From positions 17,050,001 through 17,114,000 of the forward strand of contig OX597817.1 in assembly GCA_951406725.2 (NCBI GenBank): 64,000 nucleotides of DNA, read 5' to 3'. Below the pieces are notes generated by a model. The model was not told where the DNA came from and did no database searches. It saw only the letters and a program-made list of their open reading frames with translations. Shown piece by piece: positions 15,581 through 62,585 of the stretch; the first letter of the stretch is position 1, and the number at the start of each line of letters is the position of its first letter. Origin of the DNA: Octopus vulgaris. Taxonomy: Eukaryota. The position numbers were made by a program, and so were the translations under genes.

Positions 15581-15820
15581 ATTGGTAAAAACAGTAAGAT
15601 AACAAAAGAAAGAAAGAGACCTCAATATTATGTAATTAGAGGAAATTTATCTATAAAATAATATGTTACAATTACTCAATAGTCAAGATAAAACTCTGAG
15701 TTTCAGATGCCGAAGTGGAAATCCACAACACCATCTCTTCGGTTATCTGGCCATCTGAAAAAACGCTATGAAAAAATACCGTTATATAAAAGGAAATTAC
15801 TGAGTTATAATTATATAAAA
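15581..15820 (-). mobile_element. Penelope-like pseudo-LTR remnant with degenerate hammerhead motif
   Basis: Abuts (TA)n; minus strand GATAA-CCGAAGA-GATG..CATCT-GAAAC-TCAGA-GTT-TTATC. Confidence 0.5.
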
Positions 15821-28325: not shown

Positions 28326-29538
28326 AATTCCTGTAGATGGCACATTTCATTGCATATCTATGTATGGCCCTTACTTTTATGTGCCCCATTTTATCTTAAA
28401 AAAACCCATATCTTACAGGAATATTTCCTGCAATAAATTGGCATCTTCTATCTGGTTAACATTATGAAATTGGAAACTATGCAGTCTTGGTCAACAGAAA
28501 TTATAACCTCCTCATTTGCAAATATGAGGCCTCATTCCAGTGTAAGGAACCATTATTACACAATTAGTTCTACTTCTACAGGTTCTAAGATTGCCCTCCC
28601 ACTACACCTATGGAGCTAGAGTTTCATCTCTTTAATTCCTGTAGATTTCATTGCATATCTATGTATGGCCCTTACTTTCATATGTCCCATTTTATCTAAA
28701 GAACCCATATCTTACAGGAATATTTCCTGCAATAAATTGGCATCTTCTATCTGGTTAACATTATGAAATTGGAAACTATGCAGTCTTGGTCAACAGAAAT
28801 TATAACCTCCTCATTTGCAAATATGAGGCCTCATTCCAGTGTAAGGAACCATTATTACACAATTAGTTCTACTTCTACAGGTTCTAAAATTGCCCTCCCA
28901 CTACACCTATGGAGCTAGAGTTTCATCTCTTTAATTCCTGTAGATTTCTATTGCATATCTATGTATGGCCCTTACTTTCATATGTCCCATTTTATCTTAA
29001 AAAAACCCATATCTTACAGGAATATTTCCTGCAATAAATTGGCATCTTCTATCTGGTTAACATTATGAAATTGGAAACTATGCAGTCTTGGTCAACAGAA
29101 ATTATAACCTCCTCATTTGCAAATATGAGGCCTCATTCCAGTGTAAGGAACCATTATTACACAATTAGTTCTACTTCTACAGGTTCTAAAATTGCCCTCC
29201 CACTACACCTATGGAGCTAGAGTTTCATCTCTTTAATTCCTGTAGATTTCATTGCATATCTATGTATGGCCCTTACTTTCATATGTCCCATTTTATCTAA
29301 AAAAAAACATATCTTTCAGGAATATTTCCTGCAATAGATTGGCATCTTCTATCTGGTTAACATTATGAAATTGGAAACTATGCAGTCTTGGTCAACAGAA
29401 ATTATAACCTCCTCATTTGCAAATATGAGGCCTCATTCCAGTGTAAGGAACCATTATTACACAATTAGTTCTACTTCTACAGGTTCTAAGATTGCCCTCC
29501 CACTACACCTATGGAGCTAGAATTTCATCTCTTTAATT
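28326..29538. repeat. ~300-bp unit tandem repeat, four near-identical copies
   Basis: Units start AATTCCTGTAGAT at ~28326, 28634, 28933 and 29235. Confidence 0.95.
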
Positions 29539-30527
29539 GCTCTGTGCAGTAATTCTGCTCTGATTTGTATACTTAGAGCCTTATTTTCTGCTAATAGCAG
29601 GCTCCTTTTCCTCATTTATAGCTTTCATTTAGCAACTGTTTATACCATCATATTTCTTTTACATTTGTCAATGAGCACAGCATGCACAATTTATTACATA
29701 ACATACTTTTCTCCCACAGACATTCTAGCTAGAAGCAGCTAAATGTTCCACTATTCTAAATACTTTATCTTCCCTTTTTAGCATTGCTAGACATCATACG
29801 TAGCCTCAGTGTAAAATGTTGTAGCATTAAAGTTATTTGTCATTTTATGGAACTACTCACTTAGCATTATTTGTATAGTCTTATGGTAACCACACAAAGC
29901 AGCTACTTGAGCAGAGCACTTAGAGTAATTTACATACTCAACATAGCAAAAAGATTATAAAAGCTTATTTTATCAACCTCACTGAGTAAGGAGTGAATTG
30001 CTAACCATATTTGAATGCTTACTACAACCAAATTGTTTCTGTAGGCAAGACCTATTACTCTCTCATTACTCATTTACACATTTACTTGTTTCAGTCATTT
30101 GACTGCGGCCATGCTGGAGCACCGCCTTTAATCGAGCAACTCAACCCCGGGACTTATTCTTTTTGTAAGCCCAGTACTTATTCTATCGGTCTCTTTTGCT
30201 GAAACTCTGTTTGCTTCAGTTTACCTAGTTAGCTTCAGATTATGCTTGTCCACAGCTGGGCAGTTGGTAGGAAGGGCATCCAGCTATAAAAAAAAAATAT
30301 TCCATTAGATTGGATTTGTTCAAATTGCAAAATTAGTTCTGTCCATGTTTATATAAAAAAAAGTATAAAATTAAATTAGACTGTTGCCTGAATTAAAATT
30401 CAAAATTAAGTTATTAAAACAATTGTAAAGCATATAAATGGCGGTGCCCCAGCATGGCCACAGCTTGTGAGCTGAAACTAGATAAAAATTCAAAAAATAA
30501 AAGGTGTAGCCATTTGCTGCTAAGTTA

Positions 30528-40751: not shown

Positions 40752-43127
40752 TCAGGTGTAGTTTCGGCGGATTTCGGAAAGCATGAGGGCCTTAAAAGAT
40801 GCAGTGTCATGGCAGTCAACAACTGACGCAGGCAGTTTATTCCATGCTTCAGCAATTCTGAGCGTGAAAAAATGTTTCCGAAAGTCATGGGAGCTGTATT
40901 GTTTTCTGACTTTGTAGGCATGTCCACGTGTGTTAGACACATGGAGATCAAAAAGGTGTTCAGTGTTGTTGTTGGTGAGGTGGTTGATAACTTTGTGGGT
41001 GTTTACCAAGTCCGTCGCCAAACGCCGGAGCTTCAGTGAATCCATGCCCAGGGAAACAAGGCGCTCAGAATATGGTAGGTGTCTGATGGAGGGTATGCGT
41101 TTGGTTGCACGTCTCTGGACAGATTCCAGGAGGTCAATGTTCTGTGCAAGATAGGGGTTCCAAACTGATGATGCGAATTCCAAGTGTGGTCGTACCATAG
41201 CTGTATACAGTTTTAAATAGATGGCTGGAGAGCGGCTAACAAAAGACCTGCTGAGTGATGCCAAGACACCCTCGGCCTTCCTGACAATCTTAGAGATATG
41301 CTTTGACCAACGCAAATCACTGCTGACAGTGATGCCTAGGTCACGCTCACAAGAGGATTTCTTGATATCAGTGTTGTGGAGGGAGTATGTGAACGCAGGG
41401 TTTTTTCTCCCAAAATGCATGGTGGTACACTTGTCCACAGCCAGTTTCAGTTGCCAGTCTGTGATCCATTGCTGCATTGTGTCTAGGTCTGATTGCAGGA
41501 AAGAGTTGTAGACATCAGGATCTGTCCTCTTGATTTCAAGGTACAGCTTGATGTCGTCTGCATATTTCAATACTGTGGCATTCTTTAAATTGGCATCTAT
41601 GTCGTTAATGTATGCCACAAACAAGAGGGGACCAAGGACAGATCCCTGTGGTACACCCGATGACATCTCATATGGTGTAGAGTGCTGTCCTAGAACTGTG
41701 ACTACCTCCTTTCGGCTGAGGATGAAGGATTTCAACCAGTTAAAAAGGTCATCCCCCACACCCATTGCAGAGAGTTTCACCATAAGCCTTTTGTGTGGCA
41801 CAGAGTTGAAAGCCTTAGCAAAGTCAAGGTAGACAACATCCACCCATGAGCCACTGTCAGTAATCTGAGTAATGTCCTCAAGGAACTCGACAAGCTGGTC
41901 ACTGCAGCTGGAGTTAGGGACAAATCCATATTGTGAGGGTCGGATGAGACTGTGAGAGCTCCAGAAGTTCCAGAGTGTTTCTCTGACACACGATTCCATC
42001 AGTTTTGCAATACAGCTAGTGAGACTGACTGGGCGATAGTTGACAGGTGATGTGCGGTCGCCCTTTTTGAACAGAGGAATGACACTGGCAGTTTTCCACT
42101 GCTCCGGAGTAGCACCATTGTTGAGACAGTACTGGAAGAAAATAGAAAGCTGGTGTAAAAGGAAGTGCCTGCCACGTTTGAGAAGCAGGTATGTAACTCC
42201 ATCGAGACCAGGGGAGGCATAGTTGTGCTTATTTTGAAGGTGACGTCGCAGCATTGCAGGTGTAAATTCCATAGTTGTTATGGAGTTTGCTGTTAGTGAT
42301 GGTGAAGATGGTACATTTTGACTTTCAACAGTGAATATGTTTGCATAGCACTCGGCAATGAGTTCTGCGCATTCCTTGGGGTCGTCAGTGATCTGGTTTG
42401 TGTGAGGGTTGCGAAGAGGGCCCACTGGAGAGTGAGGTCTCTGCTTTGAGTGCACATATTTCCAGAAAACCTTGCTGTCAGGATTGGCTGCTATGCACTG
42501 TTCAAATTCAAGCACTGCTTTTTTTGTCACTTGCTTGAGATGGTTGGAGGATTTATTCCGCTTCTTCCTGTTGGTGTCTGATTTATGCAACCTGTATTCC
42601 CGTTCAGCAGTCCGACGTTCCCTCCTGGCAAGTCGGACCGCTGAAGTTTCCCAAATTGCCCTTTTGGGGCGGTTCTTCTTTTTTTGTTTACGTGGCACTG
42701 ATGCTGCACATGCTGCCCATATTGAGTCCAGGATACTCTGGAGTATAGTATTCACATCTCCAGAGTTGTAGAATTCACGCCAGTTTGGGTGCTGTAGTTC
42801 AGTGTGGTACAGGTTCCAATCTGCTCTCTTCCAATCGAAGGAAGCAGATTGGAGATGGTTCAGGTTTTTGTTGCCCGCAAGAGCCAGATTGGCGATGATC
42901 ATAGCATGATCAGAGTCACCTAGAGGTTCCTCCGTAGTGCAATTGATAACTGCTTCAGGAGTTGTGGTGAAGAGCAGGTCCAAGGTGTTGTCGCCTCTTG
43001 TTGGAGAGGTGACTACTTGTGACCAGTTTGAGTCCAGCACAAGCTCAACAAAATCGTTTGCACTCTGTGGCCAATGGAAGGTCTCCCAATCGATCTCAGG
43101 ATGATTGAAATCGCCTGCAATAAACAC
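40752..43127 (-). CDS. LINE ORF2: end of APE domain, reverse transcriptase and C-terminal region
   Basis: GDFNHP, LDL, SDH (APE); NYRPVSLTS, QYGF, YLDFAKAF, GVPQGSVLGPLLF, YADD (RT); CR1-type RDLGI, VRPHLEF, LESVQRRATK, TRGH; 791 codons open. Confidence 0.93.
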   Translation of the reverse strand: MFIAGDFNHPEIDWETFHWPQSANDFVELVLDSNWSQVVTSPTRGDNTLDLLFTTTPEAVINCTTEEPLGDSDHAMIIANLALAGNKNLNHLQSASFDWKRADWNLYHTELQHPNWREFYNSGDVNTILQSILDSIWAACAASVPRKQKKKNRPKRAIWETSAVRLARRERRTAEREYRLHKSDTNRKKRNKSSNHLKQVTKKAVLEFEQCIAANPDSKVFWKYVHSKQRPHSPVGPLRNPHTNQITDDPKECAELIAECYANIFTVESQNVPSSPSLTANSITTMEFTPAMLRRHLQNKHNYASPGLDGVTYLLLKRGRHFLLHQLSIFFQYCLNNGATPEQWKTASVIPLFKKGDRTSPVNYRPVSLTSCIAKLMESCVRETLWNFWSSHSLIRPSQYGFVPNSSCSDQLVEFLEDITQITDSGSWVDVVYLDFAKAFNSVPHKRLMVKLSAMGVGDDLFNWLKSFILSRKEVVTVLGQHSTPYEMSSGVPQGSVLGPLLFVAYINDIDANLKNATVLKYADDIKLYLEIKRTDPDVYNSFLQSDLDTMQQWITDWQLKLAVDKCTTMHFGRKNPAFTYSLHNTDIKKSSCERDLGITVSSDLRWSKHISKIVRKAEGVLASLSRSFVSRSPAIYLKLYTAMVRPHLEFASSVWNPYLAQNIDLLESVQRRATKRIPSIRHLPYSERLVSLGMDSLKLRRLATDLVNTHKVINHLTNNNTEHLFDLHVSNTRGHAYKVRKQYSSHDFRKHFFTLRIAEAWNKLPASVVDCHDTASFKALMLSEIRRNYT

Positions 43128-43189
43128 ATAAGTGGCTGTTTTCCTGGCAGCAGCTCGGAGGACATTGCAAAGCTGTGTGTCCCGATGGT

Positions 43190-43516
43190 AACTTGGGGAC
43201 GATAAACAACGCCAAGCAGGAGTGTTGACATGGTCATACGCACGTCACAGAAAAAAACTTCTTCTTGTGATTCGTTCAAATCGGCACAAGGAATTACCAA
43301 AAAATTTGAACGAACGTAGACCATCACACCACCACCACGGCGGTTAGTGCGGTCCTTACGGAAGAGGTTGTACCCCGTAATGTTGAAAACCCCATCACAG
43401 AGTAAGGAATGCGCCCATGTTTCCGTGACAGTGATGAAGTCAGGGTCAACACTTCTGACGTAGGCGTTGAACAAATGTATTTTGTTGCATAAACTGCGAG
43501 CATTTAAGGACAACAA
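43190..43516 (-). CDS. LINE ORF2 N-terminal APE domain (1-nt frameshift at ~43195 relative to the RT frame)
   Basis: LNARSLCNK, VTETW, GYNLFRKDR..RGGGVMVYV, VVYRP. Confidence 0.88.
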
Positions 43517-43604
43517 TTTGTACCCTGCTCGCAGTTTATGATGGTGTGTAGAGGATGGCAGGTTGTTCTGGCTTAGTTTCCCTGAGTTGCTGTAGTCTTT
43601 TTAG

Positions 43605-44702
43605 TTATTGTGGGTAGAGAGCACTCAGACCAGCTGGTATCTCTCTTCCACGTTTCAGCAGTCTTGACAAATCTCCAGATTTGTCCATCTTCCGAAGACT
43701 GAAGCTTTCCTGTAGAGCTGAGTTCCTATTCAGGGAAGCCACTACACGTAGCTTCGGACGTACATCGGACGGTAAGCCTGGGCGTGTTCGGAAGGTGGTC
43801 CGATTTTCCCGCCCAGCTTTAACTGAGGCCAGATGGTAAGAGGTTGCCTCAGTGGGGTCCGTAAAAGACAACTTGATGAGCCTAGGTTTTGGGCCAGGTC
43901 GTCCAAGGCAGATAGCACCCGTTGGGGGAACGCAGCCTAGGTCTTTGGCTGAGTTGGCAGCAAAAGCCTGAAGATCAGCCATGTCTTCTGGCACCCCAAT
44001 GGCAATGACTTCATGGGTGGCAGAATCCGCGGTCTTAAATGCGACAAGAGGTACAGGTACAGGGAGGTTCTTTAGCAGAGCATTCCGATAAGACCCCTCA
44101 TTGTGGAGTCCAACCTGAATGGTTGCTTTTATTCCTGCTACTTCCCCTTTTAAAGCACAGATCGATTGTTGCAGTTCTGCAAGAACCGCACTGGTCAATT
44201 GGTGTTGTTGTTGTTGCTGCTGTTGCTCTGGTTGTGGTTGATTTTGTTGTTGCTGTTGTTGTTGTTGATGTTGTTGTTGCTGCTGCTCTGGTTGTGGTTG
44301 ATTTTGTTGTTGCTGCTGCTCTGGTTGTGGTTGATTTTGTTGTTGCTGCTGCTGCTGCTCTAGTTGTTGCTGCTGCTCTGGTTGTGGTTGATTTTGTTGT
44401 TGCTGCTGTTGCTGTTCCGCCTCCTCCACGGGAGTGGCAGGGGGAGACACAATCGTCGGTTGTGGAGGCACGCAGGCCTGACACTGAAAAGTCCAAGATT
44501 TAAGCTGAACCATCTTCCAGAGTCTATCCATCATAGCATTATGATGGCTCTTTTTTTGGCCTGGGATCTTCTGAAAGTCCGTGGCACAATGGAGGCAGAC
44601 AGAGATGAGACATGTCCCACATTCGACCCAGCGATTACGGAACGTATTTTCGGGTTCCGTATTTTCTGGGCAGTGTTCTATAGAGCAGCGACCATATGGA
44701 TT
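43605..44702 (-). CDS. LINE ORF1 with PHD-like Cys finger, polyQ tract, coiled coil and RRM-like region
   Basis: Frame open from 44702: CSIEHC..WVECGTC..CLHC..FQCQAC, Q-rich repeats, IAIGVPE, LGRPGPKPRLIKLSF. Confidence 0.75.
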   Translation of the reverse strand, partial: NPYGRCSIEHCPENTEPENTFRNRWVECGTCLISVCLHCATDFQKIPGQKKSHHNAMMDRLWKMVQLKSWTFQCQACVPPQPTIVSPPATPVEEAEQQQQQQQNQPQPEQQQQLEQQQQQQQNQPQPEQQQQQNQPQPEQQQQQHQQQQQQQQNQPQPEQQQQQQQHQLTSAVLAELQQSICALKGEVAGIKATIQVGLHNEGSYRNALLKNLPVPVPLVAFKTADSATHEVIAIGVPEDMADLQAFAANSAKDLGCVPPTGAICLGRPGPKPRLIKLSFTDPTEATSYHLASVKAGRENRTTFRTRPGLPSDVRPKLRVVASLNRNSALQESFSLRKMDKSGDLSRLLKRGREIPAGLSALYPQ

Positions 44703-45043: not shown

Positions 45044-45480
45044 ACTCATTTAAATCACCAAAATACACTAATGATAACTACAGAAATCAACTGAAAGCAG
45101 ATCAGGTTAATAAAATCTAACATACATTTAAGTATTTGGACTCACACAGACCGGTTTCTGCTCTGGCAAAAATTGCAGCACACATTACCCCATGATGGAG
45201 ACCCCTACCCTATTGTTTCAAAACAATAGATTAGGGGTCTCCATCATGAGGTAACACATGCTGAAGAAGCGAAGGCAATTTTTGCCAGTGCAGAAACCGG
45301 TCCATGTGAATCCAAATACTTAAATGTACGTTAGTAGATTTTATTAACCTGATCTGCCTTCGGTTGATTTCTGTAGTTATCATCAGTGTATTTTGATGAT
45401 TTAAATAAGAGTTTTGACTGTTATTTCCAGCAGGTAGACATACTTAGTATGTCCTTTGATTAATTTTAATCCTTCAGCTA
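44976..45480. mobile_element. ~505-bp fold-back palindrome; inverted Penelope-like pseudo-LTR pair
   Basis: Arms of ~245-260 bp complementary around 45219-45220; right arm carries a hammerhead motif. Confidence 0.75.
45255..45308 (+). ncRNA. Minimal type I hammerhead ribozyme motif
   Basis: CACATG-CTGAAGA-AGCGAAGGCAATTTTTGCCAGTGCA-GAAAC-CG-GTC^CATGTG; perfect 6-bp stem I, palindromic ACCGGT stem III. Confidence 0.7.
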
Positions 45481-55807: not shown

Positions 55808-56382
55808 TGGCGACCGATGCAGGAGCAGGTTTTGATTCCAGGGGTCTTGGACTTCGAGTCCAGAAAAAGCTATTGGGGAAGATGTCAAATAAGAAAATTG
55901 CCAAAATATTTGTTGATGAAACACTGGCTGAAGTGCTTGACAACATGTGTCGAATCCTGAAAGACTATTCTTCAAATAAGAAAGAAGTAGAAAAAATCCT
56001 TAAGTACATTATCAAGACAATAGTAAAGATTGGGATTCTATTCCGAAACGATCAATTTAACCAAGCAGAACTGACCAAAATTGAAGTCTTCAAGCAAAAG
56101 TTTAATACCCTTGCAATGACTATCATCAGCTTTTGTGAAGTGGATTTCACCTATGACAGAATTTTCTTGCAAAAAAACTTAGAGGAATGTCGTAGCCTTA
56201 TCCAGGAGATTGTTCACAGACATCTGACAGACAAATCTAAGACTCGAATTGACACAGTGTTCAGATATTTCTCAGATACAGATCTTTTGGATGAACTATT
56301 CAGCAGTTCTAGCAAATACAAAGATCAATTAAACATCATAGTAGCAGATATGCACAAAATGATCGATGAGGGAAATTTATAG
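55808..56382 (+). CDS. TNFAIP8: TNFAIP8/TIPE-family protein (Drosophila sigmar-like), main and last coding exon
   Basis: ATD..FDSRGLGLRVQKKLLGKM..AKIFVDETLAEVLD..IIKTIVKIGILFRNDQFN..AMTIISFCEVDFTYDR..RHLTDKSKTRIDTVF..MIDEGNL matches the family; TTTTCAG acceptor at 55806-55807, phase 1. Confidence 0.95.
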
Positions 56383-56930: not shown

Positions 56931-59578
56931 CATTTGAAAAACCCACATCTTCTTTTGCAAATAATTAAACCAACAGTTTTACTATTTTTATATGTATATA
57001 TGAAATGTGTAAGTATAACTTCTTACTGATGTAGATACAACTACTTTTACATAAAATGTCTTTTTTTTAAGTCTTCTTTAAATTTTTTTTTCTTTTTACC
57101 AACTTTAATTCTAGGCATTTATAACACCATGTATGTTTCATGTTTTCGTGTTACTTATATTTTCTTAGTAAATTGAAAAATTATTGAAAAACTGTACACA
57201 TTGTGAAGTAATTGTTAACCATGTACTATACATTACATACATACTATTTTCTATATTTTACAGTATCTACTTATTATACAGCAAATGTTCATCTAGCATT
57301 GAAATTACTTTTTACTTGTCTGTAGTTTATTATATTTATCCTGACCTCTATGTTTTAGTGATTCATAACAATTACACCATCAAGAATTCATCCATTCATG
57401 TTTTTCAAAGAAACCTGTACAGGTTGTTTTGGGGTTTTTTTTTTTTTTGTTTTTTTTTTGTGGTGATGGTGGGAGACAAAGGTGAGAGTTGAAAAATAAA
57501 AAAAGATAAAGCATTAGGGTAGGTGTTGAGGGGTGGTGAAACGTTTGACCTCTGTAGCAATGCGTAATAGGTCAAAGTCGGAGAGGAATGCATTCTTGAG
57601 CAATTTATTCTTTGTACATTATGGTAAAACAAAGAAATCTGGATTCAAAAATCTTTGAACATGTTAACATATGGTTTACCATCAAGGTAGTGATGGAGAA
57701 GATACTTTGAATTGATATGACGTTCTTTATGTAGAAATTTTGCTTCAAATTTGTACATCATTTTTGGATATCTATTGAAGATAGTATACATCAACTGTAG
57801 AATTGAAGATATGAGACCAGTATATATTAACTGTAGATTAATATTCAATTCAATAATTAGTTGGAAGATACTCATATTTGATTCAATGCATTCCCTAATG
57901 TTTTAGGGGTGATTTGAGCAATAGGTAGTGAGGTTTATTGGTTTGCATGTGTATCTGTTTTTCTGTGCTGGAAAGGATTGGATAGTTCTGTAATATAGCA
58001 TTCTTCTATGCAAATTAATCCTGTTTAAACACACTATTCAGGAAATTGCTGAGTTTTATGATTAGATGCCTTTCTTAGTGTCAGTTCTTATGACAGACTG
58101 GGCTTGGTGTTTTTTTTATCATGGTACCAGCACTAGATAAACTGGCTTCCCAATCACTTTCTTCACCACACATTGAGTTGAATAACCAAGAAAAAAAATA
58201 TATATATATACAAGGAAGCACTTACATGGTTGCTGGAACTGCTAGAACTAACAGCTACACCTCCCTTCATATAACTCCCATCTCAAATAAGGAAAAGATA
58301 TATAATGTCATAGTGTTGTTTTTTTTTATATGCCCCTAAACGACAACATAGTCTCAGCTGGAATGCTTTTATTAACAGCTCTGTGCAATCTAGGATGACT
58401 TTGGGTTAAACAGCAACAGCATGAATATATGCTGTAGGCTAGGGAATTGGGAGTCCTAGAGTATCTGTTTTTTTTTTTGATATTTCAGTTTAAAGGTTGA
58501 TATAGGTAATTTACCATTCTGTAAAATAGTAAAAAGTGGGAAATGAAGTTGAACTAATATCTATTTAAAATTTTATTCCTTGTTCTTCAGTTTAAAACTT
58601 AACATGCTTTTATGCCTATGCATACATTCCTCTAGAAACTTTTGAACAAGAGATACTGGGCTAAAAAAAAACAAGGTAGATTTTTTTTTAATGTTGTATG
58701 ATTTTAATTTCCCAAGATACAAAACATTTGCCATTTCATTCAAGAACTGTTTTCAAACCTAAATGTCAGCTATTTCAAGTTTGTACCTACATTTGTCAAA
58801 ATATTGCAATAGTAACAAAATGTTTATATGTGAAAATATGATTTTTCTTTTTTTTTTTATATAAACAGTCAAATGTTTTCATAAGAAGGTATTTCAGACA
58901 GATATGAGGGGAGATTGACAAATAATAAATAACCTAATTGTTGGTTTTTGCCATATTTGGAACAAAAACAAGACAATTTTTAATTGATAAAGAAAATGTA
59001 CTAGAATATTTTCTCATCAGATTTTATATCTTTGGAATTCTATTACAATTTCTTTTCTTTTTCTCTTTTTTTTTTTTGTGATATTCAGCTAAAATTGGGA
59101 GTGATAAAACAGTAGTGCGTGATCACTCATGGTCTAGACAACAACCCTGCTTGAATTTGAAGTGTTTTTTAAAGCTTTACTGAAGTCAATTTAAAATGGG
59201 TTGTTGGAACCTTATTTGAACAGAAATATCTTGTAATGCTAATGTTCACAAATGCATGCAATAAAAAAGAAAATGTTTTATAGTAACAATCCACATTTTC
59301 ATCACAAAGTCCCCACCTTGTTTATTCACCTCCATAGCAAACAATTTTAACTCATCACAAATTAAAGCTTTTTGAGCTTTTAACCATTTCTTCTTCCATT
59401 TCTTCTTTCACTCCTTCAGCCAGTCATTAATATTTTAGAATGGATTTTTTAACTTCCAACAATGTATCATTGAGACAGTAGAATGGAGTTTTGGGGTGAC
59501 CAGATTGTAAATGTAAGATGAGACTTTGAAACTCTGTATCTTGTATTATCAGGAAATATAACAAACATATATATATAT

Positions 59579-60104
59579 ATAGGAAAAAAGCAACAAGAAT
59601 GGATCAATATTTCGGTACAATTGTTTCGTACGAAGACATCTTTAATAAGGCTATAAAAATTGCAATAAATATAGGTGACTCGTACTCATCAGCCGAAAAA
59701 TCATCTGAGATTCCCAAACATCAAAGGGAGTGATGTTACACTCGTGAAACATCATGGAAAGTTCTATAAAAATGAAATTTAGATAACAAATTGGTTTCTA
59801 AAAGTTCTATTAGTATTACACAGTCATATATCAGGTTTTTAAAAATATTTTTCAAAACCTTTTAGTTTTCCAGAAAGTGAAGATGAAAGTGAGGGTGTGA
59901 GTTTATCCATATTGAAGAAAGTTTGATTCCTAGAGATCTGATGAAACAATTGTACCGATATATTGATCCATTCTTGTTGCTTTTTTCCTATTTATAATCA
60001 CCCCACTTTGTCGTATGGTTAACACCATATAGATTTCTGGTGCATCCAAGTTAAGTACCATATTCATGTGAATTCAACAGAACTCACTTGAATCTTAATT
60101 GCTT
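59579..60104. mobile_element. Penelope-like remnant with partially inverted pseudo-LTRs between (TA)n tracts
   Basis: ~50-bp inverted repeat at 59579-59629 / 59941-59991 that includes the hammerhead 3' half. Confidence 0.7.
59610..59698 (-). ncRNA. Type I hammerhead ribozyme motif, canonical core
   Basis: Minus strand TTTCGG-CTGATGA-GTACGA-(46 nt)-TCGTAC-GAAAC-AATT-GTA^CCGAAA; perfect 6-bp stems I and II. Confidence 0.85.
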
Positions 60105-61211
60105 ATATATATATATATATATATATATTGTGTTCTAAATGGTCAGAATGACTCAATTGTCTATGAATTGTTTTTCAGCAAACAATGGTTTTTCAAATGT
60201 TTTAGATTTACATAATTCTCAGTAACAAACATTGTTTTATATTTCTTCTCAATAATTGTCCTGTTTGTTTTGACAATTCTGATTAGTTGTCGTTCTGTAT
60301 GAAGTATTGAAAAAAATATATATATAGGATCTGTCACCTTCAAAATTAAATTTGGCTTTCAAATAATTATACATTTGTGAAATGGTTCTTAAAATATAAA
60401 TGAATTTAACTACGCTATTTCTAAAGAATACATTGATATATCCCACAGCTTGTTATTTTTTACAAGCTGGGTTTTCTTTTTAATCTTACAACTGGCCACC
60501 ACCTCTAAAGACCTTCCTTCCATGTGTTAATCTTTGTCATATTTAAAGCAAAAACTAAAAGATGTCTTATCTACTTCATTTACATTCCTATAAGGTCTAT
60601 TAACTAACTCATAACTTCTTTTACAATGCAATCTGAAAAATTTATGTGCAAAGAGATGTATTCTTTGTCTCCATTTTATCTGTTTTATCAAGTATTTGAA
60701 ATTCTTTTCTTTATGTCCACCTTACACACACACACACACACACTCTCTCTCTCTCTCTCTCTCAACTTTGCCTAATTACCAACAAAAGACAGAACCTACT
60801 CTGGCTTCATGGATGAGTGAGAACAATGTGACTAAGATCAACAACTTCCAAAAAAATAAATCTTGTCCATGGCAAAGAGGACAAAATGGATATGAAGAAG
60901 TAAAAAAAAAGAAGAAAAAAAAAATGGTGAAAAAAAATTGCATTTCATATTGGAAATGCAGTAAAATGTTGTCCACCATAGGAATTCTATAAAACTTCTA
61001 CTAGGCAGCATTAATGAAGCATTGATATTGTTTTACTGTTCACTTTTCCATGCTCGACTGGCACAGACAGAATTTGAGGTAGATTATCTGTGGCTGGATG
61101 CTCTTCCTGTTGCCAACCCTTACTTCTTTTCAAGCAAAGTAATATTTTACCCCAAAGCCGTACATGTATTCAGGGAAGCTAGAAGCAAGCAACACAGTAT
61201 GTGTATGTATG

Positions 61212-62388: not shown

Positions 62389-62514
62389 TTAAGTAGGTGA
62401 ATGAATTATTCTATGTTTATCGTCAGCATGGAAAATTCGTTTAACCGAAACTTGTCTTCGAAACATATGTCGAGAGTAAAGGAATTTTGTTAACATCTTC
62501 GTTCGACTCCATTC

Positions 62515-62585
<71 letters not shown>

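What the first reader, a model, noticed from the sequence alone, without database searches (positions are those of the whole stretch)
59610..59698. Canonical hammerhead ribozyme antisense to the TNFAIP8 3' region
Seen (minus strand): all core nucleotides (CUGAUGA, GAAA, GUA site), perfect 6-bp stems I and II, a large 46-nt loop II and a palindromic AC-AAUU-GU stem III. An inverted partner at 59938-59991 keeps CTGAT/GAAACAATTGTACCGA but lacks stem II. Known: this architecture matches Penelope pLTR and retrozyme hammerheads. It lies ~350 bp past an AATAAA at 59260. With 45255, 15682 and 62460, up to four unrelated hammerhead-bearing families occur in 64 kb, suggesting a large uncatalogued ribozyme-retroelement repertoire in this genome.
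Basis: partly seen in the sequence, partly recalled or inferred. Interest (0 to 1): 0.75.

Follow-up and report, generated by a model that had tools for sequence, protein, structure and literature searches.

The report
Long-armed hammerhead of octopus Hydra retrotransposon
This hammerhead ribozyme motif sits in the broken-off end of a Penelope-like jumping gene, a known pairing; it likely cuts the element's own RNA, likely leaves the neighbouring gene's message uncut, and is unusual mainly for a second arm over twice as long as in relatives, which carries a likely poly(A) signal.

Summary
The motif is real: full core, 6-bp stems I and II, the only strict hit in the window, 0 of 200 shuffles. 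It lies in the pseudo-LTR (pLTR) of a 5'-truncated, 5'-inverted copy (59582-60104) of a Hydra-clade Penelope-like element (PLE) inserted in (TA)n. Seven full-length relatives in this genome have intact RT plus GIY-YIG ORFs, with hammerheads 4.2-4.7 kb apart. Stems and the palindrome covary across five subfamilies.

Corrections: the '46-nt loop' is a predicted extended helix with an inner hairpin. The partner's 'CTGAT' is a junction artefact. Guessed-RNA contigs run past the AATAAA at 59260, so the copy probably lies inside the TNFAIP8 3' UTR, antisense.

Distinctive: helix II spans 57-60 nt versus 10-25 nt in 52 of 53 relatives. It holds AATAAA/ATTAAA about 25 nt before the cut (36 of 36 aligned rows); relatives often carry it just after the cut (22 of 50). 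No insertion ends at the cut (0 of 30).

PLE hammerheads are published, and this scan has already noted long-armed ones elsewhere in this genome. Cleavage is untested.

The parts
59610..59698 (-). Type I hammerhead motif in the pLTR of a Hydra-clade Penelope-like element; predicted cut between 59616 and 59615
59628..59685 (-). Helix II with long arm (58 nt): 6-bp base stem, predicted extension to about 10 bp, inner hairpin at 59651-59665
59641..59646 (-). ATTAAA (AATAAA in subfamilies C-E), candidate poly(A) signal inside the arm, 25 nt before the cut
   Evidence: 36 of 36 aligned rows; use as a signal is inferred
59617..59624 (-). Palindromic stem III ACAATTGT (2 bp as monomer, 8 bp as dimer)
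59582..59602 (-). Conserved U/GU-rich pLTR end; short 3' end of insertions, 34 nt after the cut
59582..59944 (-). Sense arm of the insertion: last 363 nt of the element (5'-truncated 3' UTR/pLTR)
   Evidence: 91-97% identical to the other 39 scored copies
59943..60104 (+). Inverted arm: 3' half of the hammerhead, pLTR end and about 120-nt tail (equal to the element's 5' UTR); 2-nt GA microhomology at 59943-59944
59567..59581 (.). (TA)n target, left flank
60105..60128 (.). (TA)n target, right flank
55808..56382 (+). Last coding exon of a TNFAIP8-family gene (host context); its 3' UTR probably runs through the insertion to beyond 61000
   Evidence: Pfam PF05527 E 3.4e-66; acceptor AG before 55808; contig cover

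Best explanation
This is the hammerhead motif in the pseudo-LTR of a 5'-truncated, 5'-inverted copy of a Hydra-clade Penelope-like retrotransposon inserted in a (TA)n run; in full-length elements it likely cuts the element's own RNA weakly, as a dimer paired through the 8-nt palindrome and likely with help from the element's protein, and here it likely does not cut TNFAIP8 mRNA, which carries it antisense. Shown: element identity, architecture, pairing conservation and insertion ends. Inferred cycle: a tandem copy is transcribed from the upstream pLTR. The RT-endonuclease protein nicks (TA)n and starts reverse transcription inside uncut RNA at one of two sites, about 34 or 150-155 nt past the ribozyme site, which gives the short and long ends. 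Early termination plus a template switch at a 2-nt microhomology gave the inverted arm. The ribozyme acts at some other step: releasing unit-length RNA from read-through transcripts, or limiting element RNA. In this lineage helix II has grown to 57-60 nt and holds the likely poly(A) signal, so polyadenylation and self-cleavage would compete for the same spot.
For: 1520 candidates, 40 scored, main matches 91-97% identical. Seven fetched copies have stop-free ORFs of 949-1072 aa from the start codon; an eighth has one stop. Hammerheads flank full-length copies 4.2-4.7 kb apart, and paired pLTR segments align at 90-99.8%, mostly above 96%. The motif is sense to the ORF, about 200 nt upstream of the ATG in tandem copies. 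All Hydra diagnostics are present. 92% of 900 cells are paired, 7 of 25 pairs show two-sided changes, 0 of 500 shuffles reach the score, and slid controls give 30-50%. The palindrome is kept through a double change to ACGATCGT in subfamily B. The core is intact in 27 of 30 copies picked by upstream sequence alone. Of these 30, 22 end 35-42 nt and 8 end 150 nt or more after the cut, 0 end at it, and 29 run into (TA)n. Two internal RT start sites and a protein-assisted hammerhead that insertion does not need are shown for an anole PLE (PMC11167929).
Against: No cleavage data. The MFE fold is no better than shuffles (z -0.32), and the RNAalifold consensus did not recover the hammerhead fold. The covarying cells stem from a few subfamily-level events, and the 36 rows were hand-picked from 57 distinct copies. 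No insertion end marks the cut. No poly(A) loose end was among the 24 of 58 rows shown. Pfam gives no domain for the ORF, so the clade call rests on motifs and homologue alignment, not on a tree. This copy has a broken pair in the inner hairpin. The RNA runs are guessed RNA, contigs only, without strand.
Confidence: 0.85

Rival explanations
1. The motif is kept mainly as a protein-binding or 3'-processing structure and seldom or never cuts in vivo.
For: 0 of 30 insertions end at the cut. Core mutants do not affect insertion in the anole PLE, and no RNA-seq ends were found at its site. Minimal PLE hammerheads cut poorly in vitro.
Against: Core letters and the GUA triplet are invariant or nearly so across five subfamilies about 75-95% identical. 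57 of 77 distant relatives carry a strict sense-strand motif, against 1 antisense hit.
Confidence: 0.2
2. The insertion regulates TNFAIP8: as an antisense ribozyme, as a substrate half-site cut in trans by family RNAs, or as a double-stranded, editable hairpin in the 3' UTR.
For: Contig cover is continuous across the insertion at host-like depth. The plus strand carries the substrate half (GAAAC-palindrome-GUA-stem I 3'). The two arms fold into a long duplex, -134.6 kcal/mol.
Against: The full motif is antisense to the gene. The half-site is predicted to be buried in the duplex. The copy is an ordinary recent family member with its own decay. No A>G cluster was listed in the arms.
Confidence: 0.07
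3. It is a non-autonomous retrozyme spreading through small circular RNA.
For: Type I motif with palindromic stem III. One locus (L037) holds a two-unit tandem of about 436 bp from a related subfamily.
Against: Copies extend 5' by variable lengths into a 3' UTR and an RT-endonuclease ORF. There is no tandem unit at this locus.
Confidence: 0.03

Closest known systems
Hydra-clade Penelope-like elements, incl. Hydra-1_Obim of Octopus bimaculoides (Craig et al. 2021, PMC8557442; passages, section 11, supplement passages and part 2 of 59 seen)
   Same: C-terminal GIY-YIG, RWK/RWR, DKT, CxCX5C linker, CxxC and CxH around E and N, no CCHH, (TA)n target, sense hammerhead near the 3' end, 5'-inverted copies.
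   Different: Unit 4.2-4.7 kb (published: mostly under 3 kb). ORF 949-1072 aa with two Asn-rich inserts (Hydra-1_Obim: 2507 bp, 709 aa). Helix II region 57-60 nt (listed loop 2: 3-10 nt in 25 families). By eye, the protein and hammerhead differ from Hydra-1_Obim, so this is another family.
PLE minimal/dimeric hammerheads (Cervera and de la Pena 2014, PMC4209133; parts 1-2 of 4 read)
   Same: Type I motif in both pLTRs, short palindromic helix III, predicted dimer, most genomic copies solo and truncated, pairs in opposite orientation 100-700 bp apart.
   Different: Their 'large' helix II is 6-8 bp. Here it continues into a 46-nt arm with an inner hairpin and a poly(A)-type hexamer.
Poseidon_Ac (PAc) of Anolis (Frangieh et al. 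2024, PMC11167929; parts 1-2 of 4 read)
   Same: Two discrete insertion ends downstream of the hammerhead that define a tail; AT-rich target; insertions made from uncut RNA.
   Different: Different clade. The tail here is about 120 nt (30-40 there), both ends fall in the 5' UTR, and each end meets an AT-alternating patch that could pair with the (TA)n primer (inferred).
Metazoan non-LTR retrozymes (PMC7229834 passages; bioRxiv 10.64898/2026.07.22.740005 part 1 of 5)
   Same: Type I hammerhead with weak palindromic helix III; PLE-related.
   Different: Those are non-coding tandem units of 170-400 nt. This is the end of a coding element.

Membership tests
Type I hammerhead ribozyme | Core CUGANGA, GAAA, UH with three helices, open at helix I | tested here: met
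   0 of 200 shuffles
Type I hammerhead ribozyme | Covariation of helices among homologues | tested here: met
   7 of 25 pairs with two-sided change; few independent events
Type I hammerhead ribozyme | Self-cleavage after the UH triplet | not testable with these tools
   contigs only
Type I hammerhead ribozyme | Loop 1 - loop 2 tertiary contact of canonical fast hammerheads | not tested
   no model built; PLE motifs usually lack it
EN+ Penelope-like element | Single ORF with RT and GIY-YIG endonuclease, sense to the motif | tested here: met
   (GLYRDD; IYK...YIG/YVG); Pfam gave no hit
EN+ Penelope-like element | Partial-tandem pLTRs, optional tail, 5' truncation and inversion | tested here: met
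Hydra clade | RWK-type and DKT motifs | tested here: met
   RIRWR/RIRWK and PADKTG
Hydra clade | CxCX5C linker; CxxC and CxH beside E and N; no CCHH | tested here: met
   CNCRIKSKC, CQLC, CIH/CVH; no two-Cys motif between GIY and YIG
Hydra clade | (TA)n insertion preference | tested here: met
   29 of 30
Hydra clade | Generally short (under 3 kb); typical rather than defining | tested here: not met
   4.2-4.7 kb unit from Asn-rich inserts and a long 3' UTR
Hydra clade | Phylogenetic placement with named Hydra families | not tested
   published reference sequences were compared by eye only
Non-LTR retrozyme | Non-coding short tandem unit with one hammerhead per unit | tested here: not met
   continuous with coding elements
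MITE / DNA transposon | Fixed terminal inverted repeats shared by copies | tested here: not met
   5' ends and inversions differ copy by copy

The most novel reading that the evidence does not exclude
In this octopus Hydra lineage the long helix II is a 3'-end switch. It places the element's poly(A) signal about 25 nt before the ribozyme cut, instead of just after it as in many short-armed relatives. Polyadenylation (giving mRNA) and self-cleavage (giving unit-length or circular RNA) would then be mutually exclusive at one site, and the arm's fold could hide the signal in the upstream pLTR. Long-armed hammerheads would be a large, genome-wide class that short-helix descriptors and Rfam miss.
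Probability: 0.25. Interest if true: 0.65.

Novelty: new variant of a known kind. Interest (0 to 1): 0.35.

Why it matters
The role of hammerheads in Penelope-like elements is an open question. This family has young copies with intact ORFs (up to 99.8% identical to each other), five subfamilies with natural compensatory changes, and an unusually long helix II holding a poly(A)-type signal. That makes it a good system to test how self-cleavage relates to polyadenylation and to reverse-transcription priming. It also shows that standard searches undercount such motifs (no Rfam hit). The single copy beside TNFAIP8 is itself an ordinary insertion.

Tried and rejected
MITE with 55-bp terminal inverted repeats: rejected, because other copies continue past the junction and invert at other points. 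Second hammerhead at the partner: rejected (junction artefact). An upstream 8-nt anti-core sequence as attenuator: seen in subfamily A, not kept in C/D (by eye). A poly(A) hexamer before the cut as a general Hydra trait: not supported (3 of 52 within 40 nt before, 22 of 50 after). Hexamer in every long arm: by eye only 2 of 7 other long-armed motifs.

Rfam: no hammerhead. Pfam: nothing for the PLE ORF. No RNA holder was listed on record and there were no raw reads, so molecule ends, strand and circles could not be read. No ORF recognisable by eye as a convergent host gene was found in 30 kb downstream, which is a weak test.

Discarded outputs: the alignment (mixed orientation), (structure mis-indexed; redone) and the 35-difference arm comparison (offset; the true figure is 1 mismatch in 49 nt). 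The absence of ends at the cut was forced by its anchor and was redone without that bias. A genome-wide count of intact motifs was not obtained.

Literature searches found no paper on long-helix-II PLE hammerheads or on ribozymes in octopus repeats; PMC13282606 has no mention of ribozyme or hammerhead. Lunse et al. 2017 was not held (title only) and could bear on arm lengths. PMC3088659 was not seen. bioRxiv supplements were closed.

Full report
1. Observation. On the minus strand, 59698-59610 holds a 6-bp stem I, CTGATGA, a 6-bp stem II around 46 nt, GAAA, the palindrome ACAATTGT and GUA, with the predicted cut between 59616 and 59615. A descriptor scan found it as the only strict hit in the window; 0 of 200 shuffles gave one. 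Rfam lists no hammerhead in the window, and the folding energy alone is ordinary (z -0.32).

2. The element. The 426-base region has 1520 first-look candidates in the 2.8-Gb genome; 40 were scored, and the main matches are 91-97% identical. The host is probably an octopus. Copies share a 3' end but have variable 5' ends, often with an inverted piece. Upstream they run into a 3' UTR and an ORF on the same strand as the motif. Among 20 longer stretches fetched, seven hold stop-free ORFs of 949-1072 aa from the start codon, and full-length copies have a hammerhead on each side, 4.2-4.7 kb apart. The sequence after the pLTR end is the 5' UTR leading to the ATG. This is the partial-tandem layout of Penelope-like elements. 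The window copy spans 59582-60104 between two (TA)n runs: a 363-nt sense arm and a 162-nt inverted arm joined at a GA microhomology. The partner's 'CTGAT' is antisense pLTR sequence.

3. Clade. The protein has RWR/RWK, DKT, GLYRDD, a CxCX5C linker, CxxC and CxH beside the catalytic E and N, and no CCHH. These are the features given for the Hydra clade in PMC8557442 section 11. That paper lists one octopus family, Hydra-1_Obim (2507 bp, 709 aa, loop 2 of 8 nt); by eye its protein and hammerhead differ from ours. Ours has two Asn-rich inserts. Pfam recognised none of these ORFs or two homologues. I built no tree.

4. Structure. The loci held 57 distinct motif copies in five subfamilies, 50 with an intact core pattern. 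I aligned 36, chosen by hand to span the subfamilies and leaving out near-duplicates and most damaged rows. With the hammerhead plus a 4-bp extension of helix II and a 6-bp inner hairpin, 92% of 900 cells pair and 7 of 25 pairs change on both sides; 0 of 500 shuffles reach the score, and slid controls pair 30-50%. Stem I swaps CG/UA and GC/AU. The palindrome becomes ACGATCGT in subfamily B and stays self-pairing, with predicted duplexes of -5.8 to -10.0 kcal/mol. These are few independent events, and RNAalifold on its own found only the inner hairpin and an alternative helix. Helix II spans 57-60 nt. In 77 metagenome contigs encoding relatives, 57 had a sense-strand motif, against 1 antisense hit. 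Of 53 distinct motifs, 52 had 10-25 nt, and one weak hit had 64. In 556 kb of DNA fetched from this genome, 4 of 7 other strict families also had long arms of 43-74 nt; shuffles gave none.

5. Poly(A) hexamer. An earlier scan note (e1-10340540) suggested this lead, and I tested it here. AATAAA or ATTAAA lies in the arm in 36 of 36 rows, 24-26 nt before the cut in the five representatives measured, and a conserved U/GU-rich tract follows the cut. In short-armed relatives the hexamer is enriched within 40 nt after the cut: 22 of 50, against 1-4 per 44-52 in seven other bins; the rows are partly related. Against this reading: the element is AT-rich and has 24-25 such hexamers, the hexamer's predicted pairing varies between subfamilies, only 2 of 7 other long arms have it by eye, and no poly(A) end was among the rows shown.

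6. Mechanism. With copies picked by upstream sequence only, 22 of 30 end 35-42 nt after the cut (the true end is about +34; the alignment runs on into TA), 8 end at +150 or more, and none ends at the cut. 29 run into (TA)n and 27 have an intact core. So the template was not RNA ending at the cut; it was uncut or circular RNA primed internally. This matches the anole PLE, where RT starts at two internal sites that define the tail, the hammerhead needs the protein, and core mutants still insert (PMC11167929). Weak, dimer-dependent cutting is reported for PLE motifs (PMC4209133). I therefore infer a weak, dimeric, probably protein-assisted ribozyme that processes element RNA at a step other than priming. 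Cleavage is not shown.

7. TNFAIP8. The last coding exon is 55808-56382. In four runs guessed to be RNA, contigs begin at the acceptor, and the unique intron bins are empty. In run X10, depth stays near 98-127 through 59260, across the copy-specific junction and on to 61000; the other three runs are patchier but also cover beyond 59260. The insertion is therefore probably inside a long 3' UTR, with the motif antisense. Strand is not known from contigs. In that RNA the two arms are predicted to form a long duplex that buries the half-site. I found no evidence of regulation.

8. Other sites. 45255 (740 candidates) and 15682 (2065 candidates, 97-99% identical) are complete motifs of other families. 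One 15682 locus has a Hydra-type endonuclease ORF upstream. 62460 (1514 candidates) is a short (TA)n-flanked piece with only the 3' half.

9. Novelty. Hammerheads in Hydra pLTRs are published. I found no paper on arms this long or on a poly(A) signal inside one; one key paper was not held. The scan's own notes already report long-armed Hydra hammerheads at other places in this genome. None matched this sequence or lay near it, and they are not independent support. Verdict: a new variant of a known kind, an ordinary insertion at this locus, interest 0.35.

Noticed in passing
window 45150-45400: Complete type I hammerhead on the plus strand (stem I CACATG/CATGTG, core CTGAAGA, palindrome ACCGGT) in another repeat family, with an inverted partner.
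   Followed up: partly
window 15620-15800 (minus): Hammerhead with a CCGAAGA core variant in a very young family (97-99% identity, 2065 candidates); a Hydra-type endonuclease ORF lies upstream in L109.
   Followed up: partly
window 62395-62522; L080-L090: Short (TA)n-flanked pieces with fixed outer ends and a variable internal junction; some copies carry two different hammerhead 3' halves in a row.
   Followed up: partly
L069:1140-1900: Contigs laid on the family pLTR show an excess of A>G and T>C differences (run X15: 34 and 15, against G>A 2 and C>T 4), as A-to-I editing of inverted copies would give; not separated from paralogue or species differences.
   Followed up: no
L118-L194: In marine Hydra-like PLEs a poly(A)-type hexamer often sits directly after the hammerhead cut (22 of 50), so cutting would remove the signal from the coding RNA.
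   Followed up: partly
L009:385, L030:3228, L035:2937, L074:295, L067:1169, L070:6418, L038:6881: Further unrelated type I hammerheads with helix II regions of 43-74 nt, found by chance in flanks.
   Followed up: partly
L037:5190-5752: Two-unit tandem (period about 436 bp) of subfamily D pLTR sequence, retrozyme-like in layout.
   Followed up: no
L061:2172-5384, L069:1677-4547: Two fast-changing Asn-rich inserts in the ORF (16-17% Asn overall), after the RT thumb and before the CxCX5C linker, absent or short in non-octopus homologues.
   Followed up: partly
window 40752-44702 (minus): LINE-like element: an 830-codon endonuclease/RT frame, a 195-codon upstream piece and a Gln-rich ORF1 with a Cys-rich start.
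   Followed up: no
window 28349-29549: Four tandem copies of a 300-nt unit (84-99% identical).
   Followed up: no
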